DNA from: Escherichia phage cardinal
Direction: 5' to 3' (one strand)
Sequence record: PQ567651.1
DNA length: 64,000 bases
A program made the translations under genes and the position numbers. Below are positions 16,527 through 58,546 of the stretch, in pieces. The notes beneath the pieces are model-generated. The model was not told the DNA's origin and searched no databases. It saw only the letters and a program-made list of their open reading frames with translations. The first letter of the stretch is position 1. Every line of letters begins with the position of its first letter.

Positions 16527-18791
16527 GTGACTCAGTATCTAAGCAAATCTATCCGTTATGTAACAAAAACAAACGGCAAGAAAGAAGAATTTAATCCAGA
16601 AAAACTTCGTAAATGGTCAGAGTTTGCTGCTGGTAAATTAAATTGGTCTGAAATTGAACTCGAAGCTGTTAAACGTTGTTACGACGGTGTGCCTACTCGT
16701 GATTTACATAAAGCTATGATAGCAGCATGTATTGATAAGAAAGATCAGGCATATAGTGATATGGCAGGTCGGTTACTTCTTGGTATGATTTATAAACAGG
16801 CTCATGGGGGATATCACAATATCCCCTCCCTCCTGGATTTCTACAATATGTCTGTAAGTAAAGGCTATTGGGGAAAAATGGATTATACAGAAGAAGAAAT
16901 TATTGAGATTGGTAAAATTGTCAATCATGATAAAAACCTAACTTATGGTTATTCCGTACTGCGCCAGATGGTTGATAAGTATCTTGTGAAAGATGCGATC
17001 AATGATGTGGTTTTTGAATCACCACAATTTTTATTCATTGGTGTAGCAATGAAGGTAATGGAAATTCAACCAAAAGATCGCAGAGTAGAAGACATTAAAC
17101 GTCTATATACCTACGTAAGTGATCTTAAGATTAATTTACCATCACCTTATTTAACAACGTTGCGTACTAAGATTAAAGGTAGTGCTTCTTGTTGTCTGTT
17201 TAGAGCAGATGATACAGCAGAATCTTTAGCAATTGCTAACTATCTTGCTCATGAATATACATTGAATAATGCAGGTATTGGTGTTAACCTCCAAACCCGT
17301 GCTACAGGACAAGGTGTTAAGAACAACCGTATCGTTCACGGTGGTCTTTTACCATATCTGAAATGGATGGAAACAAGTGTTGGAGCATCAAAACAAGCAA
17401 GCCGTGGTGGAAGTGCAACAGTAACGTTTACAATATTAGAACCTGATTTTGAAGATCTGGTACGTTTGAAAAACCCAACTACTGTTAGTGAAAAACGAGT
17501 AGATAAACTTGATTACTCTATTGTAGTAAACAATGCTTTCCTGCGCCGTGCAGCAAAAGGTAAAGATTGGATGCTAGTCAGTTATGACGAAGCACCAGAA
17601 CTCTATGAGGCGCTTTATAAAAGCGAGGAAGAGTTTGAAGAAGTATATGAAAAAGTTAGTCGCAAACGAATTAAGAAGAAGTTTGTAAAAGCACGAGATC
17701 TTCTGGCAGAAATTATTACACAAAGAGCAGAGACAGGACGTATTTATATGTTCTTTGCGGATAATGCTAATAAGCATACTCCGTTTAAGGATGTTATTTA
17801 TCAGTCCAACTTGTGCCAAGAAATTTTCTTACCTACGAAAGCATTTCACAGTATGACTGATCTTTTCACAGGTGAGAATACAGAAGACCAAGAATTGGCA
17901 TTATGCTTCCTGTCTTCTATTGTAGCTGGTCGTGTTACACCAGAAGAATATGAAGATGTTGCATATTATACCGTTCTAACTATTGATAATGTTATTGAAA
18001 CAATGCAGTATCCGTTTAAACATAACGAAATCACTGCTAAAGCACGTAGGTCTATCGGTGTAGGTATTACAAACCTGGCACATTATCTGGCAAGTAATTT
18101 TGTTACTTATTCAGATCCTTACGGCAAAAAACTAATTCACGAATTAGCAGAAAGACATTATTACTGGTTAGCAAGAGCTTCTCTTCGTTTGGCAAAAGAG
18201 AAAGGTAATGCAGAATGGATGCATAAAACCAAGTGGCCTGAAGGATGGTTGCCTATTGATACCTACGCTAAAGCTGTAGACGATATTGGCAATTTTAAAC
18301 TTAAAATGGATTGGGAAGGTTTACGACAAGATATCATTGCACAAGGTGGTATCCGAAATAGCGTATTAGCAGCTATTGCTCCAAATGAGTCCAGTAGTCT
18401 TGTAAGTAATACGACTAACTCTGTGTATCCTGTACGTGATACTATAGTTTATAAACAAAGCCAAAAGGGTAATGTTCTGTTTATTGTGCCAGACTACGAT
18501 AAACTAAAAGATATTTACCAATCGGCTTGGGATACACCAGATAAAGATATGGCTGAAGCATATGGACTGTTGACTAAATTCTTAGATCAAGGTGCATCAT
18601 GTGATAAGTGGATTGACTATTCTAAGATGGAAGGTGGTCGTTTATCCATTAAATCAGAAATGCAATATATTCTTCAGTTTGCAAAACTTGGTGGTAAATC
18701 TTTGTACTACCTAAATAGCAGAACAAAATCGGCATCCTCACTCGCTCAAGAAGATTCTGAAGACGAGGGGTGTAGCGCCTGTAAAATGTAA
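16527..18791 (+). CDS. nrdA: ribonucleoside-diphosphate reductase large subunit
   Basis: 754 aa; N-terminal ATP-cone-like region, C-terminal Cys pair CSACKM, overall class Ia NrdA organisation. Confidence 0.85.
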   Translation: MTQYLSKSIRYVTKTNGKKEEFNPEKLRKWSEFAAGKLNWSEIELEAVKRCYDGVPTRDLHKAMIAACIDKKDQAYSDMAGRLLLGMIYKQAHGGYHNIPSLLDFYNMSVSKGYWGKMDYTEEEIIEIGKIVNHDKNLTYGYSVLRQMVDKYLVKDAINDVVFESPQFLFIGVAMKVMEIQPKDRRVEDIKRLYTYVSDLKINLPSPYLTTLRTKIKGSASCCLFRADDTAESLAIANYLAHEYTLNNAGIGVNLQTRATGQGVKNNRIVHGGLLPYLKWMETSVGASKQASRGGSATVTFTILEPDFEDLVRLKNPTTVSEKRVDKLDYSIVVNNAFLRRAAKGKDWMLVSYDEAPELYEALYKSEEEFEEVYEKVSRKRIKKKFVKARDLLAEIITQRAETGRIYMFFADNANKHTPFKDVIYQSNLCQEIFLPTKAFHSMTDLFTGENTEDQELALCFLSSIVAGRVTPEEYEDVAYYTVLTIDNVIETMQYPFKHNEITAKARRSIGVGITNLAHYLASNFVTYSDPYGKKLIHELAERHYYWLARASLRLAKEKGNAEWMHKTKWPEGWLPIDTYAKAVDDIGNFKLKMDWEGLRQDIIAQGGIRNSVLAAIAPNESSSLVSNTTNSVYPVRDTIVYKQSQKGNVLFIVPDYDKLKDIYQSAWDTPDKDMAEAYGLLTKFLDQGASCDKWIDYSKMEGGRLSIKSEMQYILQFAKLGGKSLYYLNSRTKSASSLAQEDSEDEGCSACKM

Positions 18792-18798
18792 TGAAACT

Positions 18799-18822
18799 AG
18801 GGGGCTTTGTCCCCCTTTCTTA
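18799..18822 (+). terminator. hairpin aggggg-ctttgt-ccccct + T-rich tail
   Basis: located right after nrdA stop. Confidence 0.5.
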
Positions 18823-18831
18823 AGGAGGAAT

Positions 18832-19167
18832 ATGCCTACATTAGTTGTATTACCTGGAGCAACACCACAAAGACATTGGGGAAATTATACACTGGTAGAT
18901 AGTAAAGATTTTACATTCGATTGGTGTTGCCATTATATTGCAGGTTTTCAATTTTCCAGTGTTGAAATATGGGCTTCCAATGATCCAGAAGCTACCTGGT
19001 ATGCTTTAACCAGGGCAAGATATGATGGAGAGGTTACTGTACTACTCACAAAGAGTGTATGGAACGCATTAGAGAAGGCTTACATAGAGAATGGTATGGA
19101 GAGAAAACACATTGATACAATAAAAGCAATGTGTGATATTGTGGAGGATTTAAATGGCAGCGATTAA
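18832..19167 (+). CDS. hypothetical protein
   Basis: track ORF between nrdA and nrdB. Confidence 0.5.
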   Translation: MPTLVVLPGATPQRHWGNYTLVDSKDFTFDWCCHYIAGFQFSSVEIWASNDPEATWYALTRARYDGEVTVLLTKSVWNALEKAYIENGMERKHIDTIKAMCDIVEDLNGSD

Positions 19168-26090: not shown

Positions 26091-26321
26091 ATGACCGAGA
26101 AATTTATTGTTACTATGGAACTCACCTTTGATGAAGAAGATTTTGATCTTCATGTATCAACTAAAGCAGATAACATTCACACAACACAGAGTGTTGCAAT
26201 CGCTATGTTCTTTAAACAAGCTATTGCAAAACAAGCTGAAGTATGTGCTGGTTTAGCTGTAGAGTATGCAGAAGTTGTCAAGGTTCTTGAAAGTGCTCGT
26301 AACGGCGATTGGGATGAATAG
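26091..26321 (+). CDS. hypothetical acidic protein; ends at TAG followed by in-frame open extension
   Basis: ATG after GGAGCA; TAG stop at 26319..26321. Confidence 0.5.
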   Translation: MTEKFIVTMELTFDEEDFDLHVSTKADNIHTTQSVAIAMFFKQAIAKQAEVCAGLAVEYAEVVKVLESARNGDWDE

Positions 26322-26528
26322 TGGCATACAATTACTATCTGGTATATTTTTAACGAAACTAAGAAAAAAGACACAGGAACTAATGTTTATGCGGAATCCG
26401 AAGAACACGCAAAAGCTATTGGTTCAGTGCTTCTTTCTAGAATAGCAGGTGAAGAAATTCCTGTAGAGGCTATCTTTGCAGAAGTTGACCCTAGTATTCA
26501 AGAGGATGGTATTACCACTACTTAACTG

Positions 26529-26557
26529 TTGACTTTAACATTAAGGTAGTGCATACT
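26529..26557 (+). promoter_or_regulatory. sigma70-like promoter TTGACT-17-CATACT upstream of recombinase gene
   Basis: -35/-10-like hexamers followed by AGGAGGG RBS. Confidence 0.4.
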
Positions 26558-26582: not shown

Positions 26583-27245
26583 ATGAAGTTTGTACTATAT
26601 CATCGACTTTCTAAGAAGAAACAACAAGGCAACCAGTATGGTATAGAATCACAGGAAGCAGATATTCAACGCTTCCTGGATTCACAAGAAAATTATACTA
26701 TTGTAGGTAGCTTTGCAGAGTTTTATTCGGGTAAAGGCGATTGGAAGCAACGTAGAGAGCTTGTAAAAGCTGTTAATCTTTGCAAAGAAACAGGTGCTAC
26801 ACTTGTTGTTGCTAAGGTTGACCGTCTTGGACGTAACACAGCTTCTGTTGCAACCTTGTTAGAGATGATCAATGTACGAATAGCAACTATGCCCTCCGCT
26901 GAAAATATGATAATAAATATTTTAGCAGTTCTGGCAGAAGAAGAGGCTCGTGCAATATCTGATCGTGTTAAGAAGAGCCTTAAGGTAGCAAAAGCGAAGG
27001 GAACGCTTCTTGGTGCAGCAAACCCTAAATACAAAAGAACAGATTATAAGAAAACGGAAGAAGCAAAACGCTCAAGAGAGTTTGCGCTTTCTTTAAAAGA
27101 TTCTTTAGTTGCATACAGAGCTTGTAAAACGCCATATATGACGATTGCAAAGCATCTGAATGAATCAGGAAAGAGAACTATTCGTGGGAGTTTGTTCGAT
27201 GCCAAAGCGGTACAACGTCTTTGTGCAAAATTGAATATTAAATAA
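26583..27245 (+). CDS. serine recombinase (resolvase/invertase family)
   Basis: YHRLS (catalytic Ser context), VAKVDRLGRN, EEEARAISDRVKKSL motifs. Confidence 0.75.
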   Translation: MKFVLYHRLSKKKQQGNQYGIESQEADIQRFLDSQENYTIVGSFAEFYSGKGDWKQRRELVKAVNLCKETGATLVVAKVDRLGRNTASVATLLEMINVRIATMPSAENMIINILAVLAEEEARAISDRVKKSLKVAKAKGTLLGAANPKYKRTDYKKTEEAKRSREFALSLKDSLVAYRACKTPYMTIAKHLNESGKRTIRGSLFDAKAVQRLCAKLNIK

Positions 27246-27254
27246 GGAGGAAAC

Positions 27255-27458
27255 ATGGCAGTTCAATCTTTTGAGGAGACTGTTAAAAAACAATTCCTAT
27301 CGAAGCGAGCGATGGTTGAATTTTTGCATTTTCTCGAAGTAGATAGGGTACTTATTGAGACTACACCAGATGGTAACTGGCAAGTCTCGTATATTGCCAC
27401 CAGGCATATCGTAGACAGTACGAAAGAAGAAAGTTCGGAAGTTACGGTTGCTAGTTAA
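27255..27458 (+). CDS. hypothetical protein
   Basis: track ORF, RBS AAGGAGG. Confidence 0.5.
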   Translation: MAVQSFEETVKKQFLSKRAMVEFLHFLEVDRVLIETTPDGNWQVSYIATRHIVDSTKEESSEVTVAS

Positions 27459-28379: not shown

Positions 28380-29121
28380 TGCTAGTATATCAAGAAATTA
28401 GTGTAAAAGATGATCAAGACCTGTTTATTATTGGTGATTTACATGGTTGCTTTGATTGTACCAGAAAGGTGTTAATACTTTAGGTATCCGAGATCAAGAT
28501 GTTGTTGTATCTTTAGGAGATCTTACAGATCGCGGCAAGCAGAATTTTCGTTGTGTTGTTGAATTCACCAGAAAGCTAAATCGTTATGGTATTCGTGGAA
28601 ACCATGAAGATATGATGATTAAAGGGTTGCTAGAAGGTGATAGACGATATTACGAATGTTGGTTTCAGAACGGAGGCCATACAGTTCTAGACGAGTGTGG
28701 AGAAGAGGGTGCAACTGCTCTTGCTTCGATGCTAGAAGATTTACCTGTTGTACTTGTTGTCAATTATCGTAATATGAAACTAGGCTTTATTCACGGTGGG
28801 TATCCTTCAGTTTTGGAACATTTGCCAATAACAGAAGTTTTGCCATTTTGTTTGAATATGAATAAAGAGCAAGTTTCTCGATTCACAGAATCTTTAATGT
28901 GGGATCGTGATATGATAGATTGCGCACTTGAAGGGATTCTTCTTCCTAGAGTTTCAGGAGTAGATTATGTATTTCACGGGCATTCTTATGTTCCTAAACC
29001 TGTGATTAGCAGTAATAGGGTATATATGGACACAGGATCTTGCTTCAATGGTAATTTAACCTTTGCATATTTTGATGATTCAAATACGTTACAATTTTAT
29101 TCTACTTTAGAGGAGGACTAA
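28379..29121 (+). pseudogene. lambda-type Ser/Thr protein phosphatase (PPP family) interrupted by apparent 1-nt frameshift near 28465..28483
   Basis: GDLHGC in frame of ATG 28379, then GDLTDRG, GNHE, HGG, GH in the track frame 28456..29121. Confidence 0.6.
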
Positions 29122-30535: not shown

Positions 30536-30789
30536 AAGGTTTAGAGTTTAACTTTGTAGATGCGTGGGAAGGATGGGATGAACTAGGAGTAGGGGATTTA
30601 TGTTTTTATGATGTTACCTTGAAGGAAGAATACAAACATCTAGCTCCTAGTGAAGATTGCGATGTGATTCTAACTATCCTATTAAGTCAGTCTATAGTGC
30701 AATTTGATTTTCTAAAAGGTAGTGAGTGTATTGAAAGTAAAGCATTCCGTTTAGAAGTTTCTCTTGGTGAAGAAGTTCCTGTAGAATAA
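30532..30789 (+). CDS. hypothetical protein
   Basis: track ORF. Confidence 0.5.
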   Translation: MKGLEFNFVDAWEGWDELGVGDLCFYDVTLKEEYKHLAPSEDCDVILTILLSQSIVQFDFLKGSECIESKAFRLEVSLGEEVPVE

Positions 30790-46542: not shown

Positions 46543-47000
46543 TTACACCTCTCATTAGTAGTTTGTTATGCGCGATATTGCATATTTTATGGAACACAGT
46601 GTACAGACATTTCTATTCAATGCAAGCATTATTTGCATCTTATAAATTTACGTCTCATGCCACACATCATACAGCGTCTTTTCATCTATTACAAGAACAG
46701 CAACCTAGGAACATCATTAATGGAGGGATTAGTATAGGGATTAGTATAGGATTTCCCTATCAATTATTCTATATATACCTAATATTTTTAACACACCCCT
46801 TTGTACATAATATAGACAAATAAATATCTATGCCACAAAAATTTTCTGGTATACCCGATTTATTTCGACACACCCCCTTTTCATAAGCGTAAAGTCAATA
46901 ATATCAATAACTTGCCGCAAAATACTGCTCGCTTGCGAGAGGTGCTTAACGCGATTTTCAGCGCCCCCCCGATTTCTGCCGACCGTCCCCCTCAAATATC

Positions 47001-47037
47001 AATGAGAATAATTATCATTTGCATTATCATTCAATGA
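47001..47037. promoter_or_regulatory. Fur-box-like AT palindrome cluster
   Basis: aatgagaataattatcatttgcattatcattcaatga. Confidence 0.35.
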
Positions 47038-47198
47038 CTTATAAGACTTTTGATTATTTTCTGAGCAAGAAAGGTACTACTCACAACAAAACAGATAAAT
47101 TCTAAGTAAATCAATGGCTTGGCAAGTCTAAACATCTATATACACCTTGCCAAATGAAATGATCTGGCGTGAAATAGTGCCACCCGTGGAAGATAGCT

Positions 47199-47219
47199 GA
47201 TAATGATTATCATTTGCAT
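47199..47219. promoter_or_regulatory. Fur-box-like palindrome
   Basis: gataatgattatcatttgcat vs Fur box GATAATGATAATCATTATC. Confidence 0.4.
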
Positions 47220-47451
47220 ACTTTCTGTACTATAAAACCGACTAAAAATCAAGATAATTCTGATTTATTGCGCTTTTAAGAGAGTAGGCTCAACAAATAA
47301 CAACAAATGAGGTATGTTATAGGGGCAATAGTATGAAAAATCATCTATTCAGATGTAAATAATTTTGCGCAATAGTGGTAATATTTTTCTTGACAAGAAA
47401 GATTTCTTTGTGTGCACATAGCGCCCCTGGAGGGTGGCGCATTATGATCAT

Positions 47452-47505
47452 CAGTGTCATTATTCATTTCAGTGTCATTATTCATTTCAGTGTCATTATT
47501 CACCA
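47452..47505. repeat. 3 tandem copies of 18-bp unit cagtgtcattattcattt
   Basis: perfect copies 1-2, third diverges at end. Confidence 0.8.
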
Positions 47506-48120
47506 TGTTTATTATTGCATAGCTTATTATATGGAGCTTATATTATAGCCAATGTTCTAAACATTAGCTAATAATAACGCACCGCAACAATGTAAGGGAT
47601 ACAATATACCATGTATATTGTTGCGCTTGCAATTGTTGCAAGCTACATAAGCACAAATAATAACTATCGGTGATGGTTATTATGTGGGGTGTGTAGTTGC
47701 GTTATTATTAGCCGCCTATGTGTCCGGCATAGGCTGCTAATGATACGCTTGCGAATTATATTTCTTGTTATAGTTATTGTATGGAATGATTACTACATGA
47801 AATGGTTACTGTATGAAATGATTATCTAAGTAATAGATAGGAAGGTAAAGATTAGATCATAAATAGATAGGATGTGAATTATTTAGTAATGTTACTAACA
47901 ATTTAATAGTTACTTTGTGCAACAATTCGATAGATTATAATTGTAGTTTTAAGGGTTAGATAGATTATATTTAGCTTAGTAATGATTTATATTAGTTATT
48001 ATTGTTTAATACAATGTTATCAATGAGATAGTAACAGTAAGTTATAAATAAAGGTGAGATAATTAGTTTTAATTTAGTTAGATAACTTATTATTTTATAG
48101 GTTAGATGGTCTTAAGTTAA

Positions 48121-48196
48121 GAATGATTCTCATTATTGCATTATGCAATTTATTGCATAAATAATCAGCTATAAATAAGAATGATTATCATTTAAG
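48121..48196. promoter_or_regulatory. Fur-box-like palindromes
   Basis: gaatgattctcattattgcattatgcaat...aagaatgattatcatttaag. Confidence 0.35.
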
Positions 48197-48406
48197 AGGA
48201 AAGACAAGAAAAAGGCTGTTTTTGCCAGGTAATTACATGAAGAAATTAAAAATAAGCGGTCTAAAACACGTTGTAAGCGCCTTATGATCTTCATGGTATG
48301 GTTGTTCATCTGCTCCTTGATTAGCTCGATACCGCGATCTATTCACTTTTTTCGGTGAACGTTTTTGATAGGTAAAAGCTATCATCTTTATTTAGGTAAA
48401 AAGAAA

Positions 48407-58436: not shown

Positions 58437-58546
58437 ATGAGAAAATTCTCATTTGCTAATGATTCTCATTCTCTTACTGAGAATGATTATCACTTACATA
58501 ATTAAATGATAATGATTCTCATTTACAAATGAGAATGATTATCATA
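58437..58546. promoter_or_regulatory. cluster of Fur-box-like palindromes
   Basis: repeated aatgattctcatt / gagaatgattatcat units. Confidence 0.4.

What the first reader, a model, noticed from the sequence alone, without database searches (positions are those of the whole stretch)
26583..27245. Serine recombinase inside a virulent-phage-like gene block
Resolvase/invertase motifs are clear (YHRLS, VDRLGRN, E..R..I..R). No integrase or repressor context is visible, so this is more likely a DNA invertase (host-range switching), a resolvase of a mobile cassette, or a recombination-dependent replication function than a lysogeny integrase.
Basis: partly seen in the sequence, partly recalled or inferred. 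Interest (0 to 1): 0.5.

Follow-up and report, generated by a model that had tools for sequence, protein, structure and literature searches.

The report
Early serine recombinase of phi92-like phage
The ORF is a real, intact and strongly conserved small serine recombinase, but it is the already-annotated gp053 gene of phi92-like virulent coliphages; no invertible segment, transposon or prophage form goes with it, so its DNA target is still unknown.

Summary
Window 26583-27245 (+) encodes a 220-aa serine recombinase (Pfam PF00239, E=8e-22). The catalytic residues Y6, R8, S10, D80-R81, R84, E121 and R128 are conserved across the family. The window is a phi92-like virulent myovirus (Justusliebigvirus). 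The ORF is 99% identical to Phi92_gp053, which RefSeq already labels 'DNA invertase'.

The protein combines a resolvase-type catalytic domain, a long E-helix and a four-helix C-terminal domain. That C-terminal domain matches the start of the large-serine-recombinase 'Recombinase' domain, not the HTH_7 of Hin/Gin or Tn3 resolvases.

The gene is under strong purifying selection (dN/dS 0.08-0.14). A sigma70-type promoter lies directly upstream in six phage lineages. It is present in every Justusliebigvirus and Phapecoctavirus record matched. In Klebsiella phage 05F01 the catalytic domain has been replaced by a Gin-like one while the C-terminal domain is kept.

No support for the invertase reading:
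- about 55 related genomes are collinear over their whole length, tail-fibre region included;
- the only inverted repeats of 22 bp or more are terminator hairpins.

No prophage copy exists in 5,426 E. coli genomes. The genome has short direct terminal repeats that lie inside this window.

Verdict: observation confirmed, gene already known, function unresolved. My best guess is an early lytic-cycle recombination between directly repeated sites.

The parts
26583..27245 (+). Serine recombinase CDS (220 aa plus stop), orthologue of Phi92_gp053
   Evidence: ORF; PF00239 E=8.4e-22; PHROG 125 E=1.6e-31; 99% identical to phi92 gp053, annotated 'DNA invertase'; dN/dS 0.08-0.14
26583..26897 (+). Catalytic alpha/beta domain (aa 1-105), with Y6, R8, S10, Q24, D80, R81 and R84
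   Evidence: Invariant or nearly invariant columns in A1 and A3; strands and helices of the AF2 model; fold matches to Sin, TP901-1 and Bxb1 catalytic domains
26904..26996 (+). Long E-helix (aa 108-138), with E121 and R128
   Evidence: Helix H108-138 in the AF2 model; E121 and R128 invariant
27066..27230 (+). C-terminal four-helix DNA-binding domain (aa 162-216). It resembles the start of the large-serine-recombinase 'Recombinase' domain (PF07508), not HTH_7
   Evidence: Helices 162-170, 172-180, 185-194 and 207-216, pLDDT about 95; 16 of 24 family members hit PF07508 and none hits HTH_7; best full-length fold hit is Bxb1 integrase; motif IAxxLNxxGxxTxRG...VxRL
26529..26557 (+). Sigma70-type promoter, TTGACT-17 nt-CATACT, in the 57-bp gap upstream of the gene
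   Evidence: Promoter scan; an equivalent TTGACA-17-NANANT promoter lies directly upstream of the orthologue in FKP3, phAPEC8, KP13-16, Vibrio phage 1.063.O and Shewanella phage 1/40
26572..26577 (+). Ribosome-binding site AGGAGG
   Evidence: Read from the sequence; annotated as an RBS in phi92
27255..27458 (+). Small downstream ORF (67 aa, gp052 homologue) that starts 9 nt after the recombinase stop codon. It is co-located with the recombinase in Justusliebigvirus and FKP3, and probably in KP13-16. Function unknown
   Evidence: PHROG of unknown function
26321..26525 (+). Upstream small ORF (gp054 homologue), conserved next to the recombinase in FKP3 and KP13-16. In this window it is broken by a GTG start and a +1 T in a T-run
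   Evidence: the gene caller skipped it on the Logan contig
46948..47290 (.). Direct terminal repeat (physical genome end), about 20 kb downstream of the gene. It is context only: a candidate substrate that has not been shown to be one
   Evidence: BME3 DTR of 342 bp (PMC12210895) maps here; many records start at this point; phi92 RefSeq annotates DTR-L; FKP3 DTR of 317 bp is homologous

Best explanation
This is the gp053 orthologue of phi92-like virulent myoviruses: a catalytically competent small serine recombinase.

Shown:
- The protein has a resolvase-type catalytic domain, an E-helix, a roughly 23-aa linker and a short helix-turn-helix domain of the large-serine-recombinase 'RD' type.
- It has its own sigma70-type promoter, so it is probably read early by host RNA polymerase.
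- It is kept under strong purifying selection throughout the Stephanstirmvirinae, and distant marine myoviruses also carry it.

Inferred:
- Like every studied family member, it binds as a dimer to a short dyad-symmetric site, synapses two such sites, cuts all four strands through phosphoserine links and exchanges them by subunit rotation.
- The genome never varies in orientation and has no paired inverted sites, so the reaction most likely joins directly repeated sites. That means resolution, deletion or cyclisation rather than inversion.
- The most economical substrate is the phage's own DNA early in infection. One concrete possibility is a site inside the two direct terminal repeats, which would circularise or monomerise the incoming or replicating genome in the manner of Cre/loxP.

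The target site itself was not identified.
For: Identity and activity:
- PF00239 E=8e-22; catalytic residues invariant; confident AF2 model with serine-recombinase fold hits.
- Selection: dN/dS 0.08-0.14.
- Presence: found in all 55 Justusliebigvirus records and, at 58% identity, in the Phapecoctavirus records matched. Also present in Vibrio phage 1.063.O and Shewanella phage 1/40, in the latter close to the DprA-like gene as in phi92.
- Early expression: consensus-like promoters sit directly upstream in six lineages.
- Catalysis plus specific DNA binding is what selection keeps. In 05F01, at the same locus, the catalytic domain is a Gin-like one (E=3e-21 to Gin; only 30% identical to this protein), while the C-terminal domain stays 60% identical.

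Against inversion, and so in favour of direct-repeat chemistry:
- Whole-genome collinearity in about 55 genomes.
- No inverted repeats of 22 bp or more other than hairpins.
- No family of paired dyad-symmetric sites.

Substrate availability:
- The virion DNA carries two directly repeated copies of a 317-342-bp terminal repeat.
- That repeat has blocks conserved between E. coli and Klebsiella phages, including a single-copy inverted repeat TTGGCA-N23-TGCCAA.
Against: - No recombination site was found, and nothing links the terminal repeat to the recombinase.
- The conserved inverted repeat in the terminal repeat spans an odd 35 bp. That fits poorly with a crossover site centred on a dinucleotide, and it could just as well serve the terminase.
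- Well-studied phages with direct terminal repeats (T7, T5, SPO1, N4) need no site-specific recombinase (established knowledge).
- Continuous resolution of concatemers would work against packaging.
- The Phapecoctavirus phage Schickermooser carries a copy with many frameshifts. If these are real, the gene is dispensable for plaque formation.
- The C-terminal domain diverges faster (31-62% identity) than the catalytic domain (62-85%), whereas the terminal-repeat blocks examined are well conserved.
Confidence: 0.35

Rival explanations
1. It is a Gin/Hin-type DNA invertase, as the RefSeq/PHROG label says. It would flip a phage segment or promoter to switch the expression of alternative genes, for example receptor-binding proteins.
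For: - PHROG 125 carries the name 'DNA invertase'.
- phi92 has a multivalent tail-fibre apparatus, a classic place for invertible switches (established knowledge of Mu and P1).
- The 05F01 orthologue carries a catalytic domain most similar to Gin.
Against: - About 55 genomes show a single orientation over the entire genome, tail region included.
- Terminator hairpins are the only inverted repeats of 22 bp or more, and no paired dyad sites exist.
- Both neighbours are small co-directional ORFs.
- No HTH_7 domain is present.
- All NCBIfam matches score far below their cut-offs; Mpi, for example, scores 32 bits against 272.
Confidence: 0.1
2. It acts on host or competitor DNA rather than on the phage genome. 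It might excise, invert or break a host element such as a defence island, satellite or prophage, or a co-infecting relative, early in infection.
For: - Early promoter.
- The gene sits among host-takeover-type genes: phosphatase, methyltransferases, Sir2 and an HslV-like peptidase.
- No site pair could be found in the phage genome.
- The DNA-binding domain evolves faster than the catalytic domain.
- Precedent that phage and satellite conflicts run through serine recombinases (PLE/ICP1, PMC6002521).
Against: - There is no direct evidence.
- Divergence of the DNA-binding domain does not track the host. The E. coli phage phAPEC8 is 44% identical to this protein, while the Klebsiella phages FKP3 and 05F01 are 60-62% identical.
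- No example is known of a virulent phage using its own serine recombinase in this way.
Confidence: 0.15
3. It is a selfish or relic gene cassette (promoter plus recombinase) that moves or persists on its own account and does nothing for the phage.
For: - It carries its own promoter.
- Its neighbours in Phapecoctavirus are unrelated to those in Justusliebigvirus.
- A 20-bp direct repeat brackets a 4.3-kb block that starts just upstream of the promoter and ends at a terminator: 26448-26467 and 30766-30785.
- The Schickermooser copy is frameshifted.
- Distant roughly 220-aa relatives are common in bacterial mobile-element contexts.
Against: - dN/dS is 0.08 over deep divergence.
- Not one of the 55 Justusliebigvirus genomes lacks it.
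- Its locus is stable across Justusliebigvirus, FKP3, KP13-16 and 05F01.
- In 05F01 the catalytic domain was replaced rather than lost.
- The 20-bp repeat is absent from FKP3, KP13-16 and phAPEC8, and it has E=0.03 within 12 kb.
Confidence: 0.1
4. It is a small serine integrase that allows rare integration or pseudolysogeny, like the resolvase-like integrase of the filamentous phage phiRSM.
For: - Small serine recombinases can act as integrases (phiRSM; PMC3816273, listed).
- BACPHLIP scores FKP3 as only 46% virulent (PMC11663894).
Against: - No trace of this region in 5,426 complete E. coli genomes.
- No close relative in 185,579 species genomes.
- All isolates are described as strictly lytic.
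- No repressor gene is annotated in the phi92 region examined, and the isolate papers report no lysogeny genes.
Confidence: 0.05

Closest known systems
Phi92_gp053 (YP_009012384.1) and its orthologues in Justusliebigvirus and Phapecoctavirus
   Same: 99% identical protein at the same locus, with the same neighbours and the same upstream gap. This is the same gene.
   Different: Essentially nothing, apart from 1-2 amino-acid changes. In this window the upstream gp054 homologue is frameshifted. No member has been studied functionally; the papers either overlook the gene or guess at 'resolvase for concatemers'.
Small serine recombinases of the resolvase/invertase group (Tn3 and gamma-delta resolvase, Sin, Hin, Gin)
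   Same: The catalytic domain, the E-helix and the overall 'catalytic domain, then linker, then small helical DNA-binding domain' layout and size class.
   Different: - The C-terminal domain is not HTH_7 but PF07508-like.
- The linker is longer, about 23 aa.
- An 11-residue insertion follows the catalytic serine (YxRLSxxKxxGNQYGxxSQ), as in large serine recombinases.
- No adjacent res site, transposase or invertible segment.
Large serine recombinases / phage serine integrases (Bxb1, phiC31, TP901-1, CcrB)
   Same: - Best full-length fold match is Bxb1.
- Best NCBIfam alignment is to CcrB residues 10-225.
- PHROG 95 'integrase' matches profile positions 88-307 of 651.
- The N-terminal motif and the start of the recombinase domain are of this type.
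   Different: Only 220 aa. It lacks most of the recombinase domain and all of the zinc-ribbon/coiled-coil domain that gives integrases their attP/attB selectivity and their control by directionality factors. No prophage state is known.
Cre/loxP of phage P1 (functional analogy only)
   Same: A phage recombinase that can cyclise a terminally redundant genome and resolve multimers through directly repeated sites. This is the working model offered here.
   Different: Cre is a tyrosine recombinase of a temperate plasmid-prophage. No lox-like site has been identified in this phage.

Membership tests
Serine recombinase superfamily (Pfam PF00239) | Catalytic domain scoring above the Pfam gathering threshold | tested here: met
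   78.3 bits against a cut-off of 23.3, aa 4-141
Serine recombinase superfamily (Pfam PF00239) | Nucleophilic serine in a YxRxS motif, plus the conserved Arg/Asp/Glu cluster | tested here: met
   Y6, R8, S10, D80, R81, R84, E121 and R128 are invariant or nearly so in 24 and in 13 homologues
Serine recombinase superfamily (Pfam PF00239) | Actual strand-exchange activity | not testable with these tools
   Requires biochemistry
Hin/Gin/Cin/Pin DNA invertases | C-terminal HTH_7 (PF02796) DNA-binding domain in a protein of about 190 aa | tested here: not met
   No HTH_7 hit at E<=1 in this protein or in any of 24 relatives; the C-terminus matches PF07508 instead
Hin/Gin/Cin/Pin DNA invertases | Adjacent DNA segment bounded by inverted crossover sites of about 26 bp | tested here: not met
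   No inverted repeats of 22 bp or more except terminator hairpins in a complete genome; none near the gene
Hin/Gin/Cin/Pin DNA invertases | Both orientations of the segment seen among related genomes | tested here: not met
   About 55 genomes collinear over the full length
Hin/Gin/Cin/Pin DNA invertases | Fis-dependent recombinational enhancer | not tested
   No reliable sequence test is available
Tn3 / gamma-delta-type resolvases | Multi-subsite res region next to the gene, and a transposase | tested here: not met
   The 57-bp upstream gap holds only a promoter and an RBS; no transposase within +/-12 kb
Large serine recombinases (phage serine integrases) | Full recombinase domain plus zinc-ribbon/coiled-coil domain (over 400 aa) | tested here: not met
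   220 aa; the model ends after a four-helix bundle; CcrB and XisF models score far below cut-off
Large serine recombinases (phage serine integrases) | Integrated prophage forms in host genomes | tested here: not met
   No match in 5,426 E. coli genomes; no close relative in 185,579 species genomes
IS607-type serine transposases | N-terminal MerR-like HTH placed before the catalytic domain | tested here: not met
   The catalytic domain starts at residue 1 and the DNA-binding domain is C-terminal
PHROG 125 ('DNA invertase' phage protein family) | Profile match | tested here: met
   E=1.6e-31, aa 1-207. The family name is an annotation, not a tested function

The most novel reading that the evidence does not exclude
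A strictly virulent phage with terminal repeats uses an early-expressed mini serine recombinase as part of its lytic programme. It would either cyclise or monomerise its own genome through a site in the direct terminal repeat (a serine-recombinase analogue of Cre/loxP), or rearrange a host or competitor DNA element. Either would be a lytic-cycle role for site-specific recombination that has not been described for this enzyme class.
Probability: 0.12. Interest if true: 0.65.

Novelty: already known. Interest (0 to 1): 0.3.

Why it matters
Serine recombinase genes are routinely treated as lysogeny markers when phages are screened for therapy, and phi92-like and phAPEC8-like phages are popular therapy candidates. 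The evidence here shows what this gene is and is not. It is a conserved, selected core gene of a virulent lineage with an early-type promoter. No prophage copies were found and no inversion. The 'DNA invertase' label on it is therefore unsupported, and so is any use of it as a temperate flag. The open question of what a site-specific recombinase does in a purely lytic cycle is real and can be answered with a knockout plus ChIP-seq. The gene itself is not new.

Tried and rejected
1. Invertible segment. Inverted-repeat searches of the window and of a complete relative, A145, gave only terminator hairpins. Collinearity searches with six chunks covering the whole genome found no second orientation in about 55 genomes.

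2. Paired dyad-symmetric crossover-like sites. I scanned 12-nt arms with gaps of 0-8 nt, requiring at least 10 of 12 matches, then clustered the hits. Only GC-rich hairpins recur.

3. A site next to the gene. The upstream gaps of six lineages share only a promoter. FKP3 has a 10-5-10 palindrome over the -10 region that the other phages do not conserve.

4. Cassette boundaries. A 20-bp direct repeat (26448-26467 and 30766-30785) brackets 4.3 kb, but FKP3, KP13-16 and phAPEC8 lack it. It lies in coding sequence (GEEIPVE / GEEVPVE) and has E=0.03 locally. I treat it as probable chance or a relic.

5. Prophage or plasmid copies in E. coli: none.

6. Close relatives in bacterial genomes: none. Distant roughly 220-aa relatives are abundant (at least 565 loci), but only 11 of 80 have any nearby inverted repeat, against 32 of 80 with direct repeats. 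Contexts are mixed, so no function can be transferred.

7. Alternative genomic contexts of the exact protein: a single Logan contig with the same context.

8. Literature. No functional study was found. The papers either say 'no recombinase' or guess at concatemer resolution.

9. The terminal repeat as substrate. Conserved blocks were found, including TTGGCA-N23-TGCCAA, but nothing ties them to the recombinase.

10. The nearby NinI-like phosphatase as an analogue of the Bxb1 gp47 directionality factor. I considered this from memory only and did not test it. This protein lacks the coiled-coil that such factors bind.

Full report
**Observation.** Window 26583-27245 (+) is an ATG-to-TAA ORF of 220 aa, with an AGGAGG ribosome-binding site 6 nt upstream. 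It matches the Pfam Resolvase catalytic domain at E=8.4e-22 (78 bits, cut-off 23; aa 4-141). It matches PHROG 125 at E=1.6e-31 and the solved Sin, Tn3 and gamma-delta resolvases. In an alignment of 24 homologues spanning 31-87% identity, Y6, R8 and S10 are nearly invariant and Q24, D80, R81, R84, E121 and R128 are invariant.

**What the window is.** The 6 kb around the gene is 98-99% identical to 55 phage records of the genus Justusliebigvirus (subfamily Stephanstirmvirinae), the phi92-like virulent myoviruses of about 146-150 kb. The ORF is 99% identical to Phi92_gp053. The authors annotated that gene in 2012 as 'putative recombinase, resolvase family protein / DNA invertase', and RefSeq now calls it 'DNA invertase'. 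The gene is therefore already known. Its function has not been studied. The papers I could find either state that these phages have no recombinase or guess that it 'keeps concatemers as single genomes'.

**Anatomy of the protein.**
- AlphaFold2, run on the 24-sequence alignment, gives a confident model (mean pLDDT 88.8).
- The model has a resolvase alpha/beta catalytic domain (aa 1-105), a long E-helix (108-138), a lower-confidence linker of about 23 residues and a compact four-helix bundle (162-216).
- The best full-length fold match in the PDB is the Bxb1 large serine integrase. The catalytic domain alone matches Sin and TP901-1.
- No family member matches the HTH_7 domain of Hin/Gin or Tn3 resolvases. 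Sixteen of 24 match the start of the 'Recombinase' domain PF07508 of large serine recombinases. The motif IAxxLNxxGxxTxRG...VxRL is typical of that domain.
- The stretch after the catalytic serine (SKKKQQGNQYGIESQ) carries the insertion typical of large serine recombinases.
- The protein is thus a 'mini' serine recombinase. It is in the resolvase size class, but its N-terminal motif and its DNA-binding domain are of the large-serine-recombinase type.
- It reaches no curated NCBIfam cut-off; CcrB, Mpi, YneB and XisF all score far below threshold.
- Proteins of about 215-240 aa with this layout are very common: 3,546 cluster representatives at E<1e-30.

**Evidence that the gene is functional and matters to the phage.**
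- dN/dS is 0.10-0.14 between close relatives and 0.08 against FKP3, where synonymous sites are saturated.
- The gene is present in all 55 Justusliebigvirus records. It occurs at 58% identity in the Phapecoctavirus records matched, and in Klebsiella relatives: FKP3 at 78%, KP13-16 at 51% and 05F01.
- More distant homologues sit in Vibrio phage 1.063.O (next to rIIA/rIIB) and in Shewanella phage 1/40 (next to a DprA-like gene, as in phi92). Both are myoviruses of about 130-140 kb. This points to long vertical retention in a group of large virulent myoviruses.
- In six lineages the gene is directly preceded by a non-coding gap holding a consensus-like sigma70 promoter. In the window this is TTGACT-17-CATACT at 26529-26557; the others have TTGACA-17-CATACT, TAAAGT, CAAACT, CATAAT or TAATAT. 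I infer early transcription by host polymerase.
- The most telling observation comes from Klebsiella phage 05F01. Its orthologue at the same locus has a catalytic domain only 30% identical to this one, and that domain is most similar to the Gin invertase (E=3e-21). Its C-terminal domain is 60% identical, as close as that of FKP3.
- A catalytic domain was therefore swapped in while the DNA-binding domain was kept. That is what one expects if selection maintains 'serine-recombinase chemistry at the site this domain recognises'.

**Tests of the invertase reading.**
- A complete relative, A145 (146,364 bp), has no inverted repeat of 22 bp or more apart from palindromic terminator hairpins.
- A scan for recurring imperfect palindromes with 12-nt arms found only such hairpins.
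- Six megablast queries that together cover the whole genome show every one of about 55 Justusliebigvirus records to be collinear. The only records with two matching places are those whose numbering starts inside the query. This includes the tail-fibre/tailspike region, where 54 records cover at least 80% of the query in one place.
- Both neighbours of the gene are small co-directional ORFs of unknown function.
- The defining features of Hin/Gin-type invertases were therefore tested and not met.

**Tests of the other readings.**
- *Integrase or lysogeny.* The 2-kb region has no match in 5,426 complete E. coli genomes, even at blastn sensitivity. No close relative exists in one genome from each of 185,579 bacterial and archaeal species.
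- *Transposon resolvase.* There is no transposase and no res-like array.
- *Mobile cassette.* Synteny (methyltransferase, gp055, gp054, recombinase, gp052..., phosphatase) holds in Justusliebigvirus, FKP3, KP13-26, KP13-16 and 05F01. Phapecoctavirus carries the gene among unrelated small ORFs.
- *Possible cassette boundary.* A 20-bp direct repeat (26448-26467 and 30766-30785) brackets 4.3 kb running from just upstream of the promoter to a terminator. It lies in coding sequence, relatives do not share it, and it is only marginally significant.
- *Dispensability.* The Schickermooser copy has many frameshifts: 23 gap positions in 1 kb against phAPEC8. This may be sequencing error.
- *Bacterial relatives.* Distant relatives of about 220 aa are abundant, but only 11 of 80 have nearby inverted repeats, against 32 of 80 with direct repeats. 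Their contexts are mixed.

**Genome ends.** BME3 and FKP3 were shown with PhageTerm to have short direct terminal repeats of 342 and 317 bp (PMC12210895 and PMC11663894). phi92's RefSeq record annotates a left terminal repeat. These map to window 46948-47290, inside a 1.6-kb non-coding stretch about 20 kb downstream of the recombinase. The repeat has blocks conserved between the E. coli and Klebsiella phages, including a single-copy inverted repeat TTGGCA-N23-TGCCAA at 47119-47153. Packaged DNA therefore carries two directly repeated copies of every site in this repeat. They are the only obvious paired sites in the genome. Nothing links them to the recombinase, and the odd 35-bp span fits a dinucleotide-centred crossover site poorly.

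**Most likely mechanism.**
- Shown: an intact, selected serine recombinase with its own sigma70-type promoter and a specific C-terminal DNA-binding domain.
- Inferred from the family: dimer binding to a dyad site, synapsis of two sites, double-strand cleavage through phosphoserine links and exchange by subunit rotation.
- Inferred from the negative tests: the productive reaction is between directly repeated sites (resolution, deletion or cyclisation) and not inversion.
- My best guess, at about 0.35, is an early lytic-cycle reaction on the phage's own DNA, possibly through the terminal repeats in the manner of Cre/loxP.
- Rivals: action on host or competitor DNA (0.15), a true invertase with an undetected switch (0.10), a selfish or relic cassette (0.10) and rare integration (0.05). 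The remainder is unassigned.

**Verdict.** The gene is already known and annotated. The useful outcomes are that the 'DNA invertase' label is unsupported and that the gene should not be read as a temperate marker. The function is an open question that experiment can settle. Interest is modest.

Noticed in passing
window 47001-47019, 47196-47214, 48116-48134, 48174-48192, 58452-58470, 58476-58494, 58505-58523, 58528-58546: There are eight same-strand copies of a 19-bp 9-1-9 palindrome-like motif, AATGAKAATNATTMTCATT, against 0.5 expected by chance. It closely resembles the E. coli Fur box (GATAATGATAATCATTATC from memory; 15-17 of 19 by my own hand alignment). Two copies lie in the terminal repeat, and four lie in tandem in a non-coding region at 58.45-58.55 kb. 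The first copy is conserved in Klebsiella relatives. They may be iron/Fur-responsive early promoters, a Fur sink or a phage regulator's operator.
   Followed up: partly
window 49136, 49945, 50166, 52843, 53723, 56425 (21 bp each): A GC-rich hairpin, GGCGGGAAACCATTTCCCGCC, recurs six times (0.01 expected) between the small leftward early genes next to the genome end. On the coding strand it is not followed by a T-run and sits just upstream of an RBS-like AAAGAAAGG. It may be a 5'-UTR or processing element rather than a terminator.
   Followed up: no
window 46640-48230, with the terminal repeat at about 46948-47290: The window runs straight across the physical genome end. A 1.6-kb non-coding stretch contains the roughly 342-bp direct terminal repeat. 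Blocks conserved with FKP3, KP13-26 and phi1_175008 include the end-proximal GC(N)CCCCC, a single-copy inverted repeat TTGGCA-N23-TGCCAA (47119-47153) and AAAATCAAGATAATTC. A threefold tandem repeat of 'cagtgtcattattcattt' lies at 47452-47500.
   Followed up: partly
window 26321-26525: The gp054 homologue directly upstream of the recombinase has GTG in place of ATG and an extra T in a T-run (TTTT to TTTTT). This frameshifts it after 10 codons relative to phi92, A145 and FKP3. The gene caller skipped it on the matching Logan contig. It is either a homopolymer sequencing error or a real inactivation.
   Followed up: partly
L093:2408-3079 (Klebsiella phage 05F01, LC483177.1): This is a natural chimeric recombinase at the orthologous locus. 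It has a Gin-like catalytic domain (E=3e-21 to PDB 4m6f; 30% identical to the window protein) fused to a phi92-type C-terminal domain (60% identical).
   Followed up: yes
window about 18790-19137 and about 21670: Compared with phi92, this genome lacks the HNH endonuclease gene (gp074) between nrdA and nrdB. It also carries a deletion of about 2.3 kb in the dTDP-rhamnose gene set (gp064-gp067). On the matching Logan contig the ORF called across that point (302 aa) carries epimerase/dehydratase and RmlD-binding Pfam domains, consistent with a fusion of the flanking gp067 and gp064 homologues. Nearly all other Justusliebigvirus records keep the 2.3 kb.
   Followed up: no
window 26448-26467 and 30766-30785: A 20-bp direct repeat (19 of 20 here, 20 of 20 in A145) encodes GEEIPVE and GEEVPVE at the ends of two unrelated small ORFs. 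It brackets the 4.3-kb block that runs from the recombinase promoter to a terminator. FKP3, KP13-16 and phAPEC8 do not have it.
   Followed up: yes
L092:2300-3046 (Escherichia phage Schickermooser, NC_048196.1): Here the recombinase orthologue is broken by multiple frameshifts, and only a 128-aa C-terminal ORF is annotated. There are 23 gap positions per kb against phAPEC8, which suggests either low-quality sequence or a genuine pseudogene.
   Followed up: partly
Records MG065639, MG065645, MG065656 and MG065689 ('Campylobacter phage' A150, A145, C3, A110a): Four unannotated 'UNVERIFIED' records labelled as Campylobacter jejuni phages are 98-100% identical to E. coli Justusliebigvirus genomes. 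The host label is probably wrong, or the preparations were contaminated.
   Followed up: no
window 28456-29121 (NinI-like Ser/Thr phosphatase, gp049 homologue): A metallophosphoesterase gene lies 1.2 kb downstream of the recombinase and stays close to it in FKP3, KP13-16, KP13-26 and 05F01. From memory, the Bxb1 directionality factor gp47 belongs to the same enzyme superfamily. The FKP3 paper mentions an 'RDF' gene without saying which one it means. This is an untested lead.
   Followed up: no
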